From NCBI RefSeq assembly GCF_002113885.1, contig NW_018408896.1:2464858-2528857 (forward strand): a DNA stretch of 64,000 nt. Reading direction: 5' to 3'. This stretch comes from Mizuhopecten yessoensis (taxonomy: Eukaryota). The position numbers and the translations under genes were made by a program. Of this stretch, positions 169 through 57,350 are shown piece by piece. Under the pieces are notes generated by a model. The model was not told the DNA's origin and did no database searches. It saw only the letters and a list, made by a program, of their open reading frames with translations. Each line of letters begins with the position of its first letter. Within the stretch, counting starts at the first letter, position 1.

Positions 169-241
169 TGCCGAAACCCGGGATCGAACCAGGGACCTTT
201 AGATCTTCAGTCTAACGCTCTCCCAACTGAGCTATTTCGGC
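169..241 (-). tRNA. trnF-GAA: tRNA-Phe (GAA), intact
   Basis: Reverse complement is the canonical 73-nt metazoan tRNA-Phe GCCGAAATAGCTCAGTTGGGAGAGCGTTAGACTGAAGATCTAAAGGTCCCTGGTTCGATCCCGGGTTTCGGCA, followed by a TTTT Pol III terminator. Confidence 0.98.
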
Positions 242-686: not shown

Positions 687-1043
687 TGCCGAAACCCGGG
701 ATCGAACCAGGGACCTTTAGATCTTCAGTCTAACGCTCCTTTTTTTCTTCTTTTAAAAATGAACTTTTATTAGTCCCAGCAAATAGGACCTCCGGGGTTG
801 GGGCCCCGTCGGCTCCTCACAGTTCACATAAAACACATATTTAAATACTCAAAAATCACAGAAGTACATTTCAACATGAAATAAGCATGGTAATAAAAGG
901 TATGTCAACGCTCATTTACAAATGAGTTGAAAAAAGACAACTTCATCATAATGATAATGCATAAGATAGGTTATTTTCAGTGCCTGATGATAAATCTACA
1001 GCCTTCAATACGTCTAACGCTCTTCCAACTGAGCTATTTCCGC
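687..1043 (-). pseudogene. trnF-GAA: tRNA-Phe (GAA) gene split by an insertion
   Basis: tRNA nt 22-73 at 687-738 and nt 1-32 at 1012-1043 (two substitutions). Nt 22-32 (GTCTAACGCTC on +) are duplicated at 728-738 and 1012-1022. Confidence 0.95.
739..1011 (-). mobile_element. Retroposed insert (5'-truncated non-LTR retrotransposon 3' end or retrosequence), 273 bp
   Basis: Exact 11-bp TSD, A-rich tail on the minus strand (739-754), AATAAA at 766-771, GC-rich hairpin-forming segment at 773-820. Confidence 0.85.
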
Positions 1044-3253: not shown

Positions 3254-6200
3254 GGAGGTTATGGGGAAAAACTCGACATTGACATTATGAATAAGGTACA
3301 ATTGTAACAAAACGATATTTTAAATTAGTTTAATAATTATAGTATACCAAATGTATACATAAACTCATTATTGAAATCTGCAAATCTTTACGGTAAACTT
3401 GTTTGATCCCCCCACCCAAGCAGTGTCAGTTGTATTCTGCTAATCAAAGCGACTATATAGTGACACCAACTGTAACTTTTTATTATGTCAGCCGTCGAAA
3501 CACTAAACATTTTTAACTCAATAGGTTTATTTTAATCACTGATTAACGAGTATTTAGACAAATATAGACGAAACCGACTGTCGATGAGTGTAGTTACCCT
3601 ACATCGGTGTTCCGTGTGGGATACATATAAGGAGGTATAGGAGAAACTAATGTTAACCTCACGACCAAACTCTGTCACATGTGTGACGACCTTAATTCAC
3701 ACATTTACTTTTCTTCCGCCAGGACAAATGTCGACGTCTGACAGACAAAGTTACAACACAATGTTTTCGAGATGCACCTGTTGATCGAAACTATGGGAAA
3801 GTTTTTCGGTGGCCACTGTGATCTAATTGAGTACTATGCTATTTTCATGTATGATATGGTCAATGTTTTCGATTATGCTATTTAATGTGCCTCGGTGTAA
3901 CTACCAGGAGTATAACTTGGAGTTGATCTAGAATTACAGGACAGTGTGGCTCATAAAGTAAAGTCGTTTAAACCTGCGTAAAGATTCTCTTTGTACTTTT
4001 TAATGATCTCAATGCATTTTTGCTATCCTGGTTCATCGATTTTCAGCTTGAATGTAGCGTTGTTCTTAATTCGGTATTAACTGAATTGAATCTTCAACGG
4101 CTTACGTCTATTCCAGATGCAGTAAAACATTCAACAATTAAGTAAAAAGGTACATATTTATAACACATCCTATGACAGAGGTTACGTTAAGAAAATATTT
4201 CTTTTTAAATTTTACCTTTTTTAAATTCATTATTCCGTTTTAAAGGAAGCTATATGTTTGTAAAAAAAATACTGTAGTACAAAATATTAATACAAATAAT
4301 GAAGCATGTATTGTAATGTATGGATTGTAGTAATATCCTGTACCTATAAGTTGTAAACTTTTGGAAAATAAACTCTAACGACTTTTTGTTTCAGTTATGC
4401 TCTGCATGTAAAACAAATACTTTGTTCTTTCAGTTTTACCAAATAAAATTTTGTTTTTTAATTTGGTGATATTTGGAGTGTTCAAGGCTTAAGCATTGTT
4501 ATATACTTTTGCTGGTTATTATCTTTACTTCGCCTATATACGGATTAACCTTTCTTTCTATTACCATTATCAATCAACGGTATTTCGTTATACAAATCTT
4601 TGACTAAGTGCTACAGTGAAACCAGGTAAATATGGGCAATTTCATTTCAGTTAAACGGAAAAATGTAATAACATCATTATTTAAGATAATTGCAGTTTTC
4701 TTTCTTAATTGCGACCGTTTAAAAAAGTGTCCAAATACGGGTTTGAACGTAACCTTAGCAAGCGTCGAAACAATGGGTCCATTAACTAGGGTCATGTTTA
4801 CGTTAGTCTAACCAGTAAGCGACCAAAAACTGACCCGTTCACGCAAATCTAATCAATGAGTTCGTTAACTCGCGTCTAAATAAAGAGTCTGTTTTCGAAT
4901 TTTTAGAATGATATAGTAGGATGATATTGTTGACAAGAATCTACCGTTTTTTTAGTTTGAAATATAGTTGAAGTGAAGATATAATGATTGTCCAAGCAGT
5001 AATCATAAGTGAATGTAATAATTTAAATAACCTGAGAAAGAAATGAATCTACTAGTAGTGGATTTGCACAGTGTTGAAGTCAAAAAAATAAAATAATTCA
5101 ATTGAATCATGCTTAGAGATGAATATAATAAATAACATTACATGTGTTCGAAATAAATATAACAATTCAATTTACCTGAGTGAGATATCCCATTACGGAG
5201 GTGACGTAAGCACTAAGGTATTATATCCGAGTCGGTCCAGGCTCCTATTCCACTGAACTGCGATATGTGACGGATCGCGGCAGCACCGAGCCTTTAGATA
5301 CTGGAGCCAGCGCTGCTGTCATCAGCACTTCATGCCATTTCAACTGTGATAATGCGTTTTGCGAAATTGATTCGTAATGTGGAATATAACTTAATAACTA
5401 ATCAATGCTATTTCAGATACAATGATTTTGTGATTATATAGTTAAAGTCTAACAACATAGCGTGGCTGTTCTCCATTTACCCAGGTAGAGCCACTTTGAC
5501 ATGTTATTGTATAAGCTGCTGTTGTACCACCCGCTGCTGAGCTGCACTAGAATCCAGGACTCGGTATAACGCATGATAAGCTTTATATCACATGGGAGCA
5601 AATACGTTTGTAGCTAATTTAATAACTCTAGCTATCCGCTACTTCGGCAATTAATATTCCAAATCACCAGCAAGCCGCGCCGAACTCAGAACGCAAAGAC
5701 ACCAGTCGTTAGAATAAAAATATATATGTGATATAGAATTTCGAAAGTAACATTTTCAAACAATGAAATGAGTTAATGTGAAGCTATCGAGGAAACCAGA
5801 ACAGTCTGGCTCTGCCAGCTCTTGTTTAAAATAGTGATAGCTTTGCGAAATTTATAATGAAATTTTAATGTTTGCTTTTTTGAGGCAACATTATGAGGTT
5901 TATGAAAAAAAACAGTGATTACATTAAAGTACATAGAACCCTTTTGATCGTTTTCGATTTTTTCTTTTTTTTCTTTATTTTAATGTCACCGATAGGAAAC
6001 GTAAACATGCCGTAGTCAGCCTTTGATTTCAAGATTGGCGATAAAGATATTGTATAGCTAGGCCTAGATACACTGATCAAAGACGGCAACTTAATAGCAA
6101 AGTATCATCTGAAATATTGTTTATACAAGTTTAGTTAGATATGAAGCCTTCCATTATTTAATTAATTCATTTTTAGTTCTGGTATTGGCGTATTAAAAAA

Positions 6201-17914: not shown

Positions 17915-19160
17915 TCATATTTCACACAAAGATATAGTACAATCAATAAAAATTGCATACAAACGTATAGTACAATCAATAAAAATTGCATACAAACGTA
18001 TAGTACAATCAATTAGCATTTCATGCAAACCTATGGTACAATCAATAATTTTTTCATACAAACCTATAGTATAGTCAATCAACATTTCATACAAACGTAT
18101 AGTGCAATCAATCAACATTTCATACAAACGTATAGTGCAATCAAGCAACATTTCATACAAACGTATAGTGCAATCAATCAACATTTTATACAAACGTATG
18201 GTACAATCAAACAACATTTCATACAAACATATAGTGTAATCAATCAACATTTCATACAAACCTATAGTACAATCAATCAACATTTCATACAAACCTATAG
18301 TACAATCAATCAACATTTCATACAAACGTATAGTACAATCAATCAACATTTCATACAAACGCACAGAACAATCAATCAATATCTCATACAAACCTTTGGT
18401 ACAATCAATCAACATTTTTATACAAACCTATGGTACAATCAATCAACATTTCATACAAACCTATAGTACAATCAATCAACATTTCATACAAACCTATAGT
18501 ATAATCAGTTAACGTTTCATACACAAGTATAGTACACTCAGTAAACATTTCTTACAAAAGTATAGCACAATCAGTTAACGTTTCATACAAACACATCGTA
18601 CAATCAGCTAACATTTCATACAAACCTATAATATAATCAGTTAACGTTTCATACAAATGTATAGTACAATCAATCAACATTTCATACAAATGTATAGTTT
18701 AATCAGTTAACGTTTCATACAAAAGTATAGTACAATCAGTTAATATTACATACAAATGTATAGTACAATCAATCAACATTTCATACAAACGTACAGTAGA
18801 ATCAATCAACATTTCATACAAACCTATAGCATAATCAGTTAACGTTTCATACAAAAGTATAGTACAATCAATTAACATTTCATACAAACACATCGTACAA
18901 TCAAATAAGATTTCATACAAACCTATAATATAATCAGTTAGCGTTTCATACAAATGTATAGTACAATCAATCAACATTTCATACAAATGTATAGTATAAT
19001 CAGTTAACGTTTCATACAAAAGTATAGTACAATCAGTTAATATTACATACAAATTTATAGTACAATCAATCAACATTTCATACAAACGTACAGTAGAATC
19101 AATCAACATTTCATACAAACCTATAGCATAATCAGTTAACATATCATACAACCATAGACA
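17915..19160. repeat. 33-bp minisatellite, about 37 copies
   Basis: Consensus ACAAACGTATAGTACAATCAATCAACATTTCAT in tandem. Confidence 0.97.
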
Positions 19161-32446: not shown

Positions 32447-32519
32447 GCCGAAATAGTTCAGTTGGGAGAGCGTTAGACTGAAGATCTAAAGGTCCCTGGT
32501 TCGATCCCGGGTTTCGGCA
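32447..32519 (+). tRNA. trnF-GAA: tRNA-Phe (GAA), C11T variant
   Basis: 73-nt canonical sequence with one D-stem substitution giving a U-G pair; T-run terminator downstream. Confidence 0.95.
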
Positions 32520-32969: not shown

Positions 32970-33042
32970 GCCTAAATAGCTCAGTTGGGAAAGCGTTAGA
33001 CTGAAGATCTAAAGGTCCCTGGTTCGATCCCGGGTTTCGGCA
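32970..33042 (+). tRNA. trnF-GAA: tRNA-Phe (GAA), G4T and G22A variant (possibly non-functional)
   Basis: 73-nt tRNA-Phe with mismatches in the acceptor stem and D stem, 523 bp from the previous copy. Confidence 0.85.
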
Positions 33043-33353: not shown

Positions 33354-36168
33354 CGGTATGTATTCACTGTGGTATCTCCTGTCCCTGTGTATTGATACTT
33401 TTGTATTAATGTCACCGTATGTATTCACTGTGGTATCTCCTGTCCCATATACTGTGGTATTTCCTGTCACTGTGTATTGATACTTTTGTATTAATGTCAC
33501 CGTATGTATTCACTGTGGTATCTCCTGTCCCTTATACTGTGGTATTTCCTGTCACTGTGTATTGATACTTTTGTATTAATGTCACCGTATGTATTCACTG
33601 TGGTATCTCCTGTCCCTGTGTATTGATACTTTTGTATTAATGTCACCGTATGTATTCACTGTGGTATCTCCTGTCCCTGTGTATTGATACTTTTGTATTA
33701 ATGTCACCGTATGTATTCACTGTGGTATCTCCTGTCCCTGTGTATTGATACTTTTGTATTAATGTCACCGTATGTATTCACTGTGGTATCTCCTGTCCCT
33801 GTGTATTGATACTTTTGTATTAATGTCACCGTATGTATTCACTGTGGTATCTCCTGTCCCTGTGTATTGATACTTTTGTATTAATGTCACCGTATGTATT
33901 CACTGTGGTATCTCCTGTCCCTGTGTATTGATACTTTTGTATTAATGTCACCGTATGTATTCACTGTGGTATCTCCTGTCCCTGTGTATTGATACTTTTG
34001 TATTAATGTCACCGTATGTATTCACTGTGGTATCTCCTGTCCCTGTGTATTGATACTTTTGTATTAATGTCACCGTATGTATTCACTGTGGTATCTCCTG
34101 TCCCTGTGTATTGATACTTTTGTATTAATGTCACCGTATGTATTCACTGTGGTATCTCCTGTCCCTGTGTATTGATACTTTTGTATTTATGTCACGTATG
34201 TATTCACTGTGGTATCTCCTGTCCCTGTGTATTAATACTTTTGTACTTATATTGTTGCCGTATATATTCACTGTGGTATCTCCTGTCCCTGTGTATTGAT
34301 ACTTTTGTATTATTATCACCGTATTCATTCACTGTGGTATCTCCTGTCCCTGTGTATTGATACTTTTGTATTATTATCACCGTATTCATTCACTGTGGTA
34401 TCTCCAGTCCCTGTGTATTGATACTTTTGTATTAATGTCACCTTATGTATTCACTGTGGTATCTCCTGTCCCTGTGCATTAATACTTTTGTACTTATATT
34501 GTTGCCGTATATATTCACTGTGGTATCTCCTGTCCCTGTGCATTAATACTTTTGTACTTATATTGTTGCCGTATATATTCACTGTGGTATCTCCTGTCCC
34601 TGTGTATTAATACTGTTGTACTTATATTGTTGCCGTATATATTCACTGTGGTATCTCCTGTCCCTGTGTATTAATACTTTTGTACTTATATTGTTGCCGT
34701 ATGTATTCACTGTGGTATCTCCTGTCCCTGTGCATTAATACTTTTGTACTTATATTGTTGCCGTATATATTCACTGTGGTATCTCCTGTCCCTGTGTATT
34801 AAAATGCTTTTGTATTAATGTCACCGTATGTATTCACTGGGGTATCTCTTGCCCTGTGTATTGACACTTTTGTATTAATGTCACCGTATGTATTCACTGG
34901 GGTATCTCTTGCCCTGTGTATTGACACTTTTGTATTAATGTCACCGTATGTATTCACTGGGGTATCTCTTGCCCTGTGTATTGACACTTTTGTATTAATG
35001 TCACCGTATGTATTCACTGTGGTATCTCCTGTCCCTGTGTATTGATACTTTTGTATTAATGTCACCGTATGTATACACTGTGGTATCTCCTGTCCCTGTG
35101 TATTGATACTTTTGTAGTAATGTCACCGTATGTATTCACTGTGGTATCTCCTGTCCCTGTGTATTGATACTTTTGTATTAATGTCACCGTATGTATTCAC
35201 TGTGGTATCTCTTGCCCTGTGTATTGACACTTTTGTATTAATGTCACCGTATGTATTCACTGTGGTATCTCTTGCCCTGTGTATTGACACTTTTGTATTA
35301 ATGTCACCGTATGTATTCACTGTGGTATCTCCTGTCCCTGTGTATTGATACTTTTATATTAATGTCACCGTATGTTTTTATTCACTGTGGTATTTCCTGT
35401 CACTGTGTATTGATACTTTTATATTAATGTCACCGTGTGTATTCACTGTGGTATCTCCTGTCCCTGTGTATTAATACTTTTGTATTAATGTCACCGTATG
35501 TATTCACTGTGGTATCTTTTGTCCCTGTGTATTGATACTTTTGTATTAATGTCACTGTATATATTCACTGTGGCATCTTGTGTCCCTGTGTATTGATACT
35601 TTTGTATTAATGTTACCGTATGTATTCACTGTGCCATCTTTTGTCTCTGTGTATTGATACTTTTGTAGTATTGTCACCGTATTTATTCACTTTGGTATCT
35701 ATTGTCCCTGTGGATTGATACTTTTGTATTAATGTAATACTTTTGTACTTATATTGTTGCCGTATGTATTCACTGTGGCATCTTGTATCCCTGTGTATTG
35801 ATACTTTCGTATTAATGTCACTGTATATATTCACTGTTGCATCTTGTGTCCCTGTGTATCGATACTTTTGTATTAATGTTACCGTATGTATTCACTGTGC
35901 CATCTTTTGTCTCTGTGTATTGATACTTTTGTATTGATGTCGCCGTATGTATTCACTGTGGCATCTTGTGTCCCTGTGTATTGATACTTTTGTAGTATTG
36001 TCACCGTATTTATTCACTGTGGTATCTATTGTCTCTGTGTATTGATACTTTTGTATTAATGTCACCGTATTTATTCACTGTGGTATCTATTGTCCCTGTG
36101 TATTGATACTTTTGTATTAATGTCACCGTATGTATTCACTGTGGTATCTCCTGTCCCTGTGTATTGAT
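33354..36168. repeat. 61-bp satellite array, about 46 copies
   Basis: Consensus TATTCACTGTGGTATCTCCTGTCCCTGTGTATTGATACTTTTGTATTAATGTCACCGTATG, with clustered 60-bp and 64-bp subvariants. Confidence 0.97.
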
Positions 36169-53231: not shown

Positions 53232-56200
53232 TTCATATTTCACACATAGATATAGTACAATCAACTAACATTTCATACAAACGTATTGTACAATCAATCA
53301 ACATTTCATACAAACGCATAGTACAATCAGTTAACATATCATACAAACGTTTAATATATTCAATCATCATCTCATACAAACGTGTAGTACAATCAAATAA
53401 CATTGCATACAAACCTATGGTTCAATCAATCACTTTTTCATACAAACCTATAGAATAATCAATCAAAAGTTCAAACAAACCTATAGTAAAATCAATCAAT
53501 ATTTCATACAAACGCACAGTATAATCAATCAACATTTCAAACAAACAGATTGTATAATCAATCAACATTTCATACACACGTATGATATAATCAATCAGCA
53601 TTTCATACAAACGTATAATATAATCAATCAACATTTCATACAAACGCACAGTATAATCAATCAATATTTCAACAAATGTATAGTACAATCAAACACTTTT
53701 TCATACAAACCTATAGTTTAATGAATCAACAGTTAAAACAAACCTATAGTATAATCAATCAACATTTCAAACAAACGTAAGGTATAATCAATCAACATTT
53801 TATACAAACGTTTAGTACAATCAGTTAATATTTCATACAAACGTATAATATGATCAATAAACATCTCATACAAACGTGTAGTACAATCAAATAACATTTC
53901 ATACAAACCTATGGTACAATCAATCACTTTCATATAAACCTATAGTATTATCAATTAAAAGTTCAGAAAAACCTAAAGTATAATTAATCAACATTTCAAA
54001 CAAACGAATAGTTTAATCAATCAACATTTCATACAAACGTTTAGTACAATCAATTAACCTTTCATACAAACGTATAATATAATCAATCAACATTTCATAC
54101 AATCGTACAGTATAATCACTCAACATTTCAAACAAACGTATAGTACAATCAATCAACATTTCAAACAAACGTAAAGTACAATCAATAAACATTTCATACA
54201 AACGTGTAGTACAATCAATAAACATTTCATACAAATATATGGTACAATCAATTAACGTTTCATACTAACGTATAGTAAAATCAATTAACATTTTATACCA
54301 ACGTATAGTACAATCAATCAAAATTTCATACAAATGCGTAGTTCAATCAATTAACATTTAATACAAACGCATAGTACAATCAATTAACATTTCATACAAA
54401 CGTATAATATAATCAATCAACGTCTCATACAAACGTGTAGTACAATCAATCACTTTTTCATACAAACCTATAGTATGATCATTCAACATTTCATACAACC
54501 GTACAGTATAATCACTCAACATTTCAAACAAACGTATAGTACAATCAATCAACATTTCAAACAAACGTTTAGTACAATTAATTAACATTTCATACAAGCG
54601 TTTAATATAATCAATCAACATTTCATACAATCGTACAGTATAATCAATCAACATTTCAAACAAGCGTATAGTACAATCAATTAATGTTTCATACTAACGT
54701 ATAGTACAATCAATCACTTTTTCATACAAACCTATAGTATAATCAATCAAAATTTCATACATACGTTTAGTACAATTAATTAACATTTCATACAAGCGTT
54801 TAATATAATCAATCAACATTTCATACAAACGTATAGTACAATTAAATAACATTTCATACAAACGTATTGTACAATCAATAAACATTTCATACAAATATAT
54901 GGTATAATCAATCAAAATTTCATACATACGTTTAGTACAATTAATTAACATTTCATACAAGCGTTTAATATAATCAATCAACATTTCATACAATCGTACA
55001 GTATAATCAATCAACATTTCAAACAAACGTATAGTACAATCAATCAACATTTCAAACAAACGTATAGCACAATCAATCAACATTTCATACAACCGTGTAG
55101 TATAATCAATCAACATTTCACACAACCGTACAGTATAATCACTCAACATTTCAAACAAACGTAAAGTACAATCAATAAACATTTCATACAAACGTGTAGT
55201 AAAATCAATAAAAATTTAATACAAAGATATGGTACAATCAATTAACGTCTCATACTAACGTATAGTAAAATCAATTAACATTTTATACCAACGTATAGGA
55301 CAATCAATCAAAATTTCATACAAATGCGTAGTTCAATCAATTAACATTTCATACAAACGCATTGTACAATCAATTAACATTTCATACAAACGTATAGTAC
55401 AATCAATCAAAATTTCATACATACGTTTAGTACAATTAATTAACATTTCATACAAGCGTTTAATATAATCAATCAACATTTCATACAAACGTATAGTACA
55501 ATCAATCAAAATTTCATACAAATGCGTAGTTCAATCAATTAACATTTCATACAAACGCATAGTACAATCAATTAACATTTCATACAAACGTATAATATAA
55601 TCAATCAACGTCTCATACAAACGTGTAGTACAATCAATCACTTTATCATACAAACCTATAGTATGATCATTCAACATTTCATACAACCGTACAGTATAAT
55701 CACTCAACATTTCAAACAAACGTATAGTACAATCAATCAACATTTCAAACAAACGTTTAGTACAATTAATTAACATTTCATACAAGCGTTTAATATAATC
55801 AATCAACATTTCATACAAACGTACAGTATAATCAATCATATTTCATACAAACGTATTGTACAATCAATCAACATTTCATACAACCGTGTAGTATAATCAA
55901 TCAACATTTCATACAAACGTATAGTACAATTAAATAACATTTCATACAAACGTATAGTACAATCAATAAACATTTCATACAAACGTGTAGTACAATCAAT
56001 AAACATTTCATACAAATATATGGTATAATCAATCAAAATTTCATACATACGTTTTGTACAATTAATTAACATTTCATACAAGCGTTTTATATAATCAATC
56101 AACATTTCATACAAACGTACAGTATAATCAATCAACATTTCAAACAAACGTTTAGTACAATTAATTAACATGTCATACAAACGTATAATATAATCAACCA

Positions 56201-57350
56201 ACATATCATTCAAACGTATACTGCTATCAATCAATCACTTTTTCATACAAACCTATAGTATAATCAATCAAAATTTCATACATACGTTTTGTACAATTAA
56301 TCAACATTTCATACAAGCGTTTTATATAATCAATCAACATTTCATACAAAAGTATAGTGCAATCAATCAACATTTCATACAACCGTGTAGTATAATCAAT
56401 CAACATTTCATACAAAAGTATAGTGCAATCAATCAACATTTCATACAACCGTGTAGTATAATCAATCAACATTTCATACAAACGTTTAGTACAATTAATT
56501 AACATGTCATACAAACGTATAATATAATCAATCAACATCTCATACAAACGTATAGTGCTATCAATCAATCACTTTTTCATACAAACCTATAGTATAATCA
56601 GTTAACGTTTCATACAAACGTATAGTCAATCAGTTAACATTTCATACAAAAGTATAGTACAATCAGTTAACATTTCATACAAAAGTATAGCACAATCAGT
56701 TAACATTTCATACAAACGTATAGTACAATCAGCTAACATTTCATACAAACCTATAATATAAAATCAGTTAACGTTTCATACAAAAGCATAGTACAATCAA
56801 TCAACATTTCATACAAATGTATAGTACAATCAATTAACATTTCATATAAACCTCAAGTATAATCAGTTAACGTTTCATACAATATTATAGTACAATCAAT
56901 CAACATTTCATACAAACGTATAGTGCTATCAATCAATCACTTTTTCTTACAAACCTATAGTATAATCAGTTAACGTTTCATACAAACGTATAGTCAATCA
57001 GTTAACATTTCATACAAAAGTATAGTACAATCAGTTAACATTTCATACAAAAGTATAGCACAATCAGTTAACATTTCATACAAACGTATAGTACAATCAG
57101 CTAACATTTCATATAAACCTAAAGTATAATCAGTTAACGTTTCATACAATAGTATAGTACAATCAATCAACATTTCATACAAACGTACAGTACAATCAAT
57201 CACTATTTCATACAAACGTATAGTACAATCAATCAACATTTCATACAAACGTATAGTACAATCAATCAACATTTCATACAGACGTACAGTACAATCAATC
57301 ACTATTTCATACAAACGTATAGTACAAACAGTTAACGTTTCATAAACCAT
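53232..57350. repeat. 33-bp minisatellite, about 125 copies with higher-order blocks
   Basis: Same monomer as the 17915 array. A multi-unit block at ~54331 recurs at ~55519 (offset 1188 = 36 x 33). Confidence 0.97.

What the first reader, a model, noticed from the sequence alone, without database searches (positions are those of the whole stretch)
687..1043. tRNA-Phe gene split by a poly(A)-tailed retro-insertion with an exact 11-bp TSD: candidate tRNA-Phe-targeting retroelement
Seen: a 273-bp insert in the same orientation as the tRNA, flanked by a perfect duplication of tRNA nt 22-32 (GAGCGTTAGAC). It ends in AATAAA plus an A-rich tail and has a GC-rich hairpin just upstream of the tail. 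Known: these are hallmarks of target-primed reverse transcription. Several Tx1-clade and R2-superfamily elements target multicopy small-RNA loci (Keno and Utopia at U2, Mutsu at 5S, Dewa at tRNA-array spacers). Inference: hitting a 73-bp GC-rich gene in AT-rich DNA suggests a site-specific family that uses tRNA-Phe, seen here as a 5'-truncated copy. One insertion cannot prove specificity.
Basis: partly seen in the sequence, partly recalled or inferred. Interest (0 to 1): 0.72.

Follow-up and report, generated by a model that had tools for sequence, protein, structure and literature searches.

The report
LINE that splits many tRNA genes
A LINE-type jumping gene has pasted itself into nearly the same spot inside the genes for nine kinds of tRNA, just behind their internal promoter, and likely finds that spot with the help of the host's tRNA-transcription factors, a targeting rule I did not find in the papers searched.

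Summary
In detail: a 273-bp A-tailed insert splits a tRNA-Phe gene, with an exact 11-bp duplication. It is the 5'-truncated end of a ~5.4-kb Tx1-type LINE. It is not Phe-specific. Of 36 genome matches, 32 have a readable 3' flank: 23 in tRNA genes of nine isotypes (only 1 Phe), 4 in a tRNA-like unit, 1 in a SINE-like head, 1 in 5S, 3 unassigned. The 28 A/B-box targets are all hit in sense, mostly at A21 just behind the A box. A sister family, and a relative from another host (tRNA-Tyr/Lys flanks), do likewise. The site follows the A box, not the B box or the cloverleaf, and the short nick motif alone is far too common. Best reading (about 0.55): the TFIIIC-bound promoter positions a weakly specific endonuclease; untested. 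Known tRNA targeters either take one isotype or land outside the gene; Repbase could not be checked. The scan noted Tx1 elements in SINE tRNA heads in other genomes, not this pan-isotype rule.

The parts
1012..1043 (-). tRNA-Phe(GAA) gene, nt 1-32 (A box at about 1036-1025; 2 substitutions against the intact neighbour)
1012..1022 (-). upstream copy of the 11-bp target-site duplication (tRNA nt 22-32)
739..1011 (-). 273-bp 5'-truncated copy of a Tx1-type LINE (family A); 91% identical to nt 5070-5343 of the near-full copy L034, 97% to its closest copies
946..1010 (-). last codons and stop of ORF2
785..817 (-). 3'-UTR GC-rich stem-loop, shared in sequence with sister family B; likely RNA recognition signal (inferred)
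766..771 (-). AATAAA signal
740..754 (-). A-rich tail
728..738 (-). downstream copy of the target-site duplication (tRNA nt 22-32)
687..738 (-). tRNA-Phe gene, nt 22-73 with B box; identical to the intact neighbour; genomic trailer follows
169..241 (-). intact tRNA-Phe(GAA), empty-site reference
32447..32519 (+). uninterrupted tRNA-Phe paralogue
32970..33042 (+). uninterrupted tRNA-Phe paralogue

Best explanation
The insert is the truncated 3' end of a two-ORF Tx1-type LINE whose copies sit in sense orientation just behind the A box of tRNA genes of many isotypes, and the site is likely set by the TFIIIC/TFIIIB-bound promoter together with a weak sequence preference of the endonuclease. SHOWN: element anatomy; target classes; a 3' junction mostly at A21; duplications of 0-20 bp that share this left edge; the same rule in a sister family and in a relative from another host. 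INFERRED from LINE biology: the endonuclease nicks the template strand at A21; the poly(A) tail pairs with the exposed T and primes reverse transcription; a variable top-strand nick 5-20 nt downstream gives the duplication; early stop gives the 273-bp copy; separating A and B box by 273 bp silences the gene. INFERRED and untested: TFIIIC, held by the B box, covers DNA up to about nt 20 and so tethers the element or exposes the first free bond. Identity and target rule about 0.95; positioning mechanism about 0.55.
For: Anatomy: ORF1 zinc knuckle, ORF2 APE-RT-zf-RVT. Targets: 28 of 32 readable 3' flanks are A/B-box units, all sense. B-box score >=8 downstream in 20 of 31 family-A and 26 of 36 family-B junctions, against 3.9% of 5000 random positions and 0 of 32 scorable tails of distant Tx1-like loci. 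Of 19 family-A junctions with an intact reference tRNA, the first non-A base lies 4 nt after G19 in 14, at 0, 2, 2 and 6 nt in four, and one has a deletion. The B box lies 27-46 nt downstream in family A, yet the site stays at the A box, also in long-arm Leu and intron-bearing Tyr. Four copies hit a unit with A box, B box and T-run but no D-stem. The 5-nt nick motif has about 2,800 sites per Mb, only 22 of 411 with a B box. The eight recent Ile copies have eight different 5' ends, so they are separate events. In yeast, TFIIIC protects -10 to +20, where +20 is the base before A21; TFIIIB makes +27 to +37 of the top strand DNase-hypersensitive (PMC11724288, passages). That overlaps the duplication ends seen here (nt 25-40).
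Against: No binding or cleavage was tested; the footprint is from yeast, in vitro. A full A-box pattern is rare enough (10 sites in 147 kb, 3 with a B box) that direct reading of the whole box is not excluded. Isotype use is uneven: about 22 of 28 targets read GGTYA, and no family-A copy was seen in Cys, Lys or Thr genes present in the fetched loci. Tx1L endonuclease alone is sequence-specific in vitro (PMC1950540). Many family-B targets and one family-A SINE head are decayed and may not bind TFIIIC. Three of 32 flanks are unassigned, one is 5S (type 1 promoter), and two near-full 5' ends (L052, L167) have non-tRNA flanks. The reverse-strand control for the B-box score is not clean (17 of 31 and 16 of 36 also score >=8), because the box is near-palindromic. 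The two flanks of L169 belong to different tRNAs, so it may be an assembly merge or a recombinant.
Confidence: 0.55

Rival explanations
1. Direct DNA readout: ORF2p (endonuclease loop plus another domain) reads the conserved A box and the GGTY-A junction on naked DNA, as other Tx1 elements read their targets; no host factor is needed.
For: An 11-residue basic endonuclease loop like Tx1L's is conserved across the clade; GGTYA bias among targets; decayed targets are hit; Tx1L-EN is specific alone (PMC1950540); Dada targets are read as primary sequence (PMC8869645).
Against: Short motifs are millions-fold too common. A full A-box pattern extrapolates to about 67,000 sites, 3 of 10 sampled with a B box, while most insertions have one. 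Bases around the nick differ strongly among isotypes and family-B targets.
Confidence: 0.33
2. Structure readout: the endonuclease nicks the D-arm hairpin or an R-loop that forms in single-stranded DNA during transcription.
For: A21 is the last D-loop base, so the nick is at a loop-stem border in true tRNAs; LINE endonucleases sense DNA structure (PMC1950540).
Against: The tRNA-like unit hit four times at the same register cannot form a D-stem (read by eye); family-B targets are poor cloverleaves.
Confidence: 0.08
3. tRNA-Phe-specific element.
For: The window's copy is in tRNA-Phe.
Against: 1 of 23 tRNA insertions is Phe; nine isotypes are hit.
Confidence: 0.01
4. No targeting: random insertion followed by duplication of clusters, or LINE-tRNA chimeric retrocopies made by template switching.
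For: Ile copies cluster on two contigs; three family-B copies (L142, L145, L148) look like duplicates of one event.
Against: Distinct 5' ends and duplication lengths per copy; both tRNA halves and the genomic trailer are in place.
Confidence: 0.03

Closest known systems
Tx1-clade small-RNA-gene targeters: Keno (U2), Mutsu (5S), Dewa (spacer of tRNA-Leu) (PMC3706591, PMC4494074, PMC5340908; passages)
   Same: Two ORFs, APE-RT, poly(A) tail, about 5.5 kb, fixed 3' junction at a multicopy small-RNA locus. The clade groups with loci found here at the U2 Keno site, in U1 and in 5S (SH-aLRT 96).
   Different: Each has one conserved target sequence, and Dewa lies in the spacer. Here one family enters the coding part of nine tRNA isotypes and tRNA-like units of divergent sequence. 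No Dewa, Keno or Mutsu reference sequence was in my tree.
RLE elements NeSL-1_TV (tRNA-Pro), LIN15_SM (tRNA-Arg), LIN25_SM (tRNA-Glu) (PMC4640811, passages)
   Same: Non-LTR retrotransposons specific for tRNA genes.
   Different: Restriction-like endonuclease, one isotype each; their positions are in a supplementary figure I did not see.
Dada DNA transposons (PMC3706591, PMC8869645; passages)
   Same: Insert at fixed sites inside tRNA genes, often at the A box.
   Different: DDE transposase, 6-7 bp duplication, nt 8-13 or anticodon region, each family with its own tRNA.
Dictyostelium TRE5/TRE3, DGLT-A, yeast Ty3 (PMC5006619, passages)
   Same: Target tRNA genes in general; TRE5-A needs an intact B box and its ORF1p binds TFIIIB. 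This is what the element likely works like.
   Different: They land outside the gene and spare it. This element lands inside at near-nucleotide precision and breaks it.

Membership tests
APE-type non-LTR retrotransposon (L1 group) | ORF2 with APE endonuclease then RT and C-terminal zinc motif | tested here: met
   PF03372, PF00078, PF13966 in L034 and L169; PDB matches are L1 ORF2/EN
APE-type non-LTR retrotransposon (L1 group) | poly(A) tail, 5' truncations, variable target duplication | tested here: met
Tx1 clade | ORF1 with zinc knuckle | tested here: met
   zf-CCHC in L034 ORF1, E 6e-6, just under the curated cut-off; no Pfam knuckle hit in L169 ORF1
Tx1 clade | Tx1L-type 11-residue endonuclease hairpin loop | tested here: met
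   best PDB hit is 2v0r, L1-EN carrying the Tx1L loop; 11-residue loop in L034, L169 and most homologues; loop length from PMC1950540
Tx1 clade | RT phylogeny with named Tx1 references | tested here: inconclusive
   groups with unnamed loci at the U2 Keno site, U1 and 5S (quick tree, midpoint root); no Repbase reference available
Dewa | insertion in the spacer of tRNA-Leu arrays | tested here: not met
   junctions are inside the genes; Dewa target from PMC3706591
Keno / Mutsu | specific for U2 / 5S genes | tested here: not met
   0 U2 and 1 5S among 32 flanks
TRE-like Pol III-tethered elements | insertion in flanks, outside the tRNA gene | tested here: not met
   intragenic
TRE-like Pol III-tethered elements | dependence on B box and contact with TFIIIB/TFIIIC | not testable with these tools
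   only indirect: B-box enrichment and A-box anchoring
R2-superfamily (RLE) tRNA targeters | C-terminal restriction-like endonuclease, no APE | tested here: not met
   N-terminal APE present

The most novel reading that the evidence does not exclude
An old lineage of animal (likely molluscan) Tx1 LINEs targets the type 2 Pol III promoter itself, whatever the tRNA: it uses bound TFIIIC/TFIIIB as a ruler to insert at the first exposed base behind the A box. It would be a LINE that joins host-factor tethering with near-nucleotide precision inside the gene, and its copies would record which tRNA-like units are occupied in the germ line.
Probability: 0.4. Interest if true: 0.85.

Novelty: new variant of a known kind. 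Interest (0 to 1): 0.7.

Why it matters
Target-specific transposons are usually split into precise sequence readers and host-tethered elements that land near, not in, their targets (PMC3706591). This family is precise, intragenic and indifferent to isotype, so it makes that split directly testable with one endonuclease and a few promoter mutants. An intact relative exists (L169: ORF1 and a 1,300-aa ORF2). It disrupts about a quarter of one tRNA gene family (8 of 31 Ile-AAT loci), so it may shape tRNA gene number. Because the A/B-box layout is shared across eukaryotes, it is also a candidate tool for inserting DNA into redundant tRNA genes (speculative).

Tried and rejected
Rfam found no family for the insert or for the tRNA-like unit. 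A genome-wide tRNA count was not obtained (only 63 of 79,926 candidates scored), so no per-gene rate over all tRNAs is given. A motif search gave 14 matches, all among the 36 already known. Family C (7 matches) had only 2 informative junctions, both in a tRNA-like unit; L280 showed none. Scans of viral and prokaryotic collections added no clade member with a 3' junction. One search's position table was spoiled by intron-mode tRNA calls and redone. The B-box matrix rests on only 18 sequences, and two family-A junctions (L028, L150) were mis-parsed. The duplication lengths allow a leading mismatch and were corrected by eye. The careful tree did not finish; the quick one is used. The stretch is held by ten DNA-type runs of one coded organism at shares of 0.72-0.82, but whether the insertion is polymorphic stays untested. 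A fixed offset from the transcription start was considered because of the 5S copy (about nt 22-28); one old copy cannot carry it. Restoration of a promoter by the element's 3' end: no A box seen there by eye. No structure or complex was predicted, since the host partner is unknown.

Full report
OBSERVATION. On the minus strand a tRNA-Phe(GAA) gene is split: nt 1-32 at 1043-1012, a 273-bp insert at 1011-739, nt 22-73 at 738-687, with nt 22-32 duplicated exactly. The rebuilt gene differs from the intact neighbour (169-241) at two bases, both in the 5' part. AATAAA, A-rich tail and hairpin are present. The hairpin is not unusually stable (z -1.2) but is shared with a sister family.

WHAT THE INSERT IS. 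It has 36 matches in the own genome, a lower bound. Longer copies run into a ~5.4-kb element (L034) with a zinc-knuckle ORF1 and an APE-RT-zf-RVT ORF2; in this copy both frames are broken, and no intact family-A copy was seen. The insert holds the last 21 codons of ORF2 and the 3' UTR. Three further copies show the 5' end. Homologues at 41-48% ORF2 identity include proteins named as Mytilus, so the host is likely a mollusc (inference). The endonuclease of the intact relative L169 best matches L1-EN carrying the Tx1L loop (2v0r), and the 11-residue loop is general in the clade. In RT trees the families studied here fall in one branch (FastTree 0.984; SH-aLRT 93 within a branch of 99) inside a group (96) with loci at U2, U1 and 5S genes. 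One search used 137 rows (44 of 120 homologues), one search used 66; no named Tx1 reference was available.

TARGETS. Four of the 36 matches have no readable 3' flank (three gaps, one interrupted); two of these have tRNA-Val 5' halves upstream. Of the other 32, read by eye and against intact tRNAs: 23 are tRNA genes (Ile 10, two of them decayed; Val 3; Gly 3; Gln 2; Phe, Arg, Asp, Pro, Leu 1 each), 4 a tRNA-like unit, 1 a SINE-like tRNA head, 1 5S rRNA, 3 unassigned (L026, L027, L150, all older copies). All 28 A/B-box targets are hit in sense. Of 19 junctions with an intact reference, 14 have the first non-A base 4 nt after G19 (A21/22), four at 0, 2, 2 and 6 nt, and one has a deletion. In the 12 family-A copies examined at both ends, duplications are 0-20 bp and share this left edge. 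The eight recent Ile copies have eight different 5' ends. Occupancy: Phe 1 of 15 loci, Ile-AAT 8 of 31 (partial matches not counted).

RELATIVES AND CONTROLS. Family B (RT 48-68% identical; 44 matches) is mostly in tRNA-like units and SINE heads, some in true tRNAs, at about the same register; three flanks are unrelated and three copies look like duplicates. A B-box score >=8 lies 15-75 nt downstream in 20 of 31 family-A and 26 of 36 family-B junctions, against 3.9% of random positions; the reverse strand also scores often because the box is near-palindromic. Family C gave 2 informative junctions of 7 matches, both in a tRNA-like unit. L169, from another host, has intact frames, a 3' junction at A21 of an intron-bearing tRNA-Tyr and a tRNA-Lys 5' half upstream; it may merge two copies, but shows two more isotypes. 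Among 68 of 80 metagenome loci examined, 32 distant ones had a scorable tail and none reached the B-box threshold. Distant own-genome families (L101-L103, L105-L107) have non-tRNA flanks. Two near-full family-A 5' ends have non-tRNA flanks.

HOW IT LIKELY WORKS. By established LINE biology, the fixed left edge is the first nick, on the template strand opposite A21; the tail primes there; a variable top-strand nick gives the duplication. What fixes the site? Not the B-box distance (27-46 nt in family A). Not the cloverleaf, since a unit with no D-stem is hit four times. Not the short nick motif, with about 2,800 sites per Mb and 22 of 411 next to a B box. What targets share is the type 2 promoter. 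In yeast, TFIIIC protects -10 to +20, the base before A21, is held mainly by the B box, and with TFIIIB exposes +27 to +37 on the top strand (PMC11724288), overlapping the duplication ends here (nt 25-40). I therefore favour positioning by the bound promoter plus a weak GGTY-A preference (0.55). Direct reading of the whole A box stays open (0.33): the pattern is rare (10 sites in 147 kb, 3 with a B box), isotype use is uneven, decayed targets are hit, and Tx1L-EN is specific alone (PMC1950540). Nothing here tests binding.

COMPARISON. Dewa is in the spacer of tRNA-Leu (PMC3706591). Mutsu is about 20 nt into 5S (PMC5340908). NeSL-1_TV, LIN15_SM and LIN25_SM are RLE elements with one isotype each (PMC4640811). 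Dada families each take their own tRNA (PMC3706591, PMC8869645). TRE and Ty3 use Pol III factors and land outside the gene (PMC5006619). So it is filed as a Tx1-type LINE, not as Dewa, Keno, Mutsu or TRE, and likely works like a TRE with an intragenic site.

NOVELTY. Ten literature searches (two were for mechanism) showed no pan-isotype intragenic LINE. I saw passages of the eight papers cited and section 15 of PMC4494074 whole, no supplements. Kojima and Fujiwara 2004 was not held, and Repbase was not available; mollusc Tx1 families with tRNA targets may be entered there, and the supplementary figure of PMC4640811 may bear on this. Earlier scan notes report Tx1 elements in the tRNA head of a SINE in other genomes (e1-8663537, e1-8672730) and a site downstream of a B box (e1-7592706); I did not test them. 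Look-ups by sequence, place and words found no note of this family.

VERDICT. Real feature; first reading partly right; new variant of a known kind; interest 0.7.

Noticed in passing
G000 C1829, C76533 and others (L108-L119): A tandem tRNA-like unit with A box, B box and T-run but no cloverleaf and no Rfam match (20 matches); four copies carry family-A insertions.
   Followed up: partly
L172, L176, L193, L289, L292 (other hosts): Tx1-like LINEs whose tails abut U1 snRNA sequence at up to three different sites (L193, L289 and L292 read by eye). PMC4640811 lists only Dada-U1 for U1.
   Followed up: partly
L183, L187, L289, L294; L173: Elements at the U2 Keno/Utopia site and one in 5S rRNA sequence (L173, L289 and L294 by eye).
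   Followed up: partly
family B junctions, e.g. L124, L125, L128, L131: Extra C runs between the A tail and the target, likely untemplated additions.
   Followed up: no
L106, L107: A distant Tx1-like family whose two 3' flanks lie next to a shared short GC-containing repeat; may be target-specific.
   Followed up: no
L105:3800-4990: A distant family with a similar 3' stem-loop ahead of its tail but a non-tRNA flank.
   Followed up: no
G000 C3142 start and C459 end: A dense tRNA-Ile(AAT) cluster holding all 8 split copies; possible local hot spot.
   Followed up: partly
window 17919-19151, 33356-36168, 53237-57344: Long 33-bp and 61-bp minisatellite arrays.
   Followed up: no
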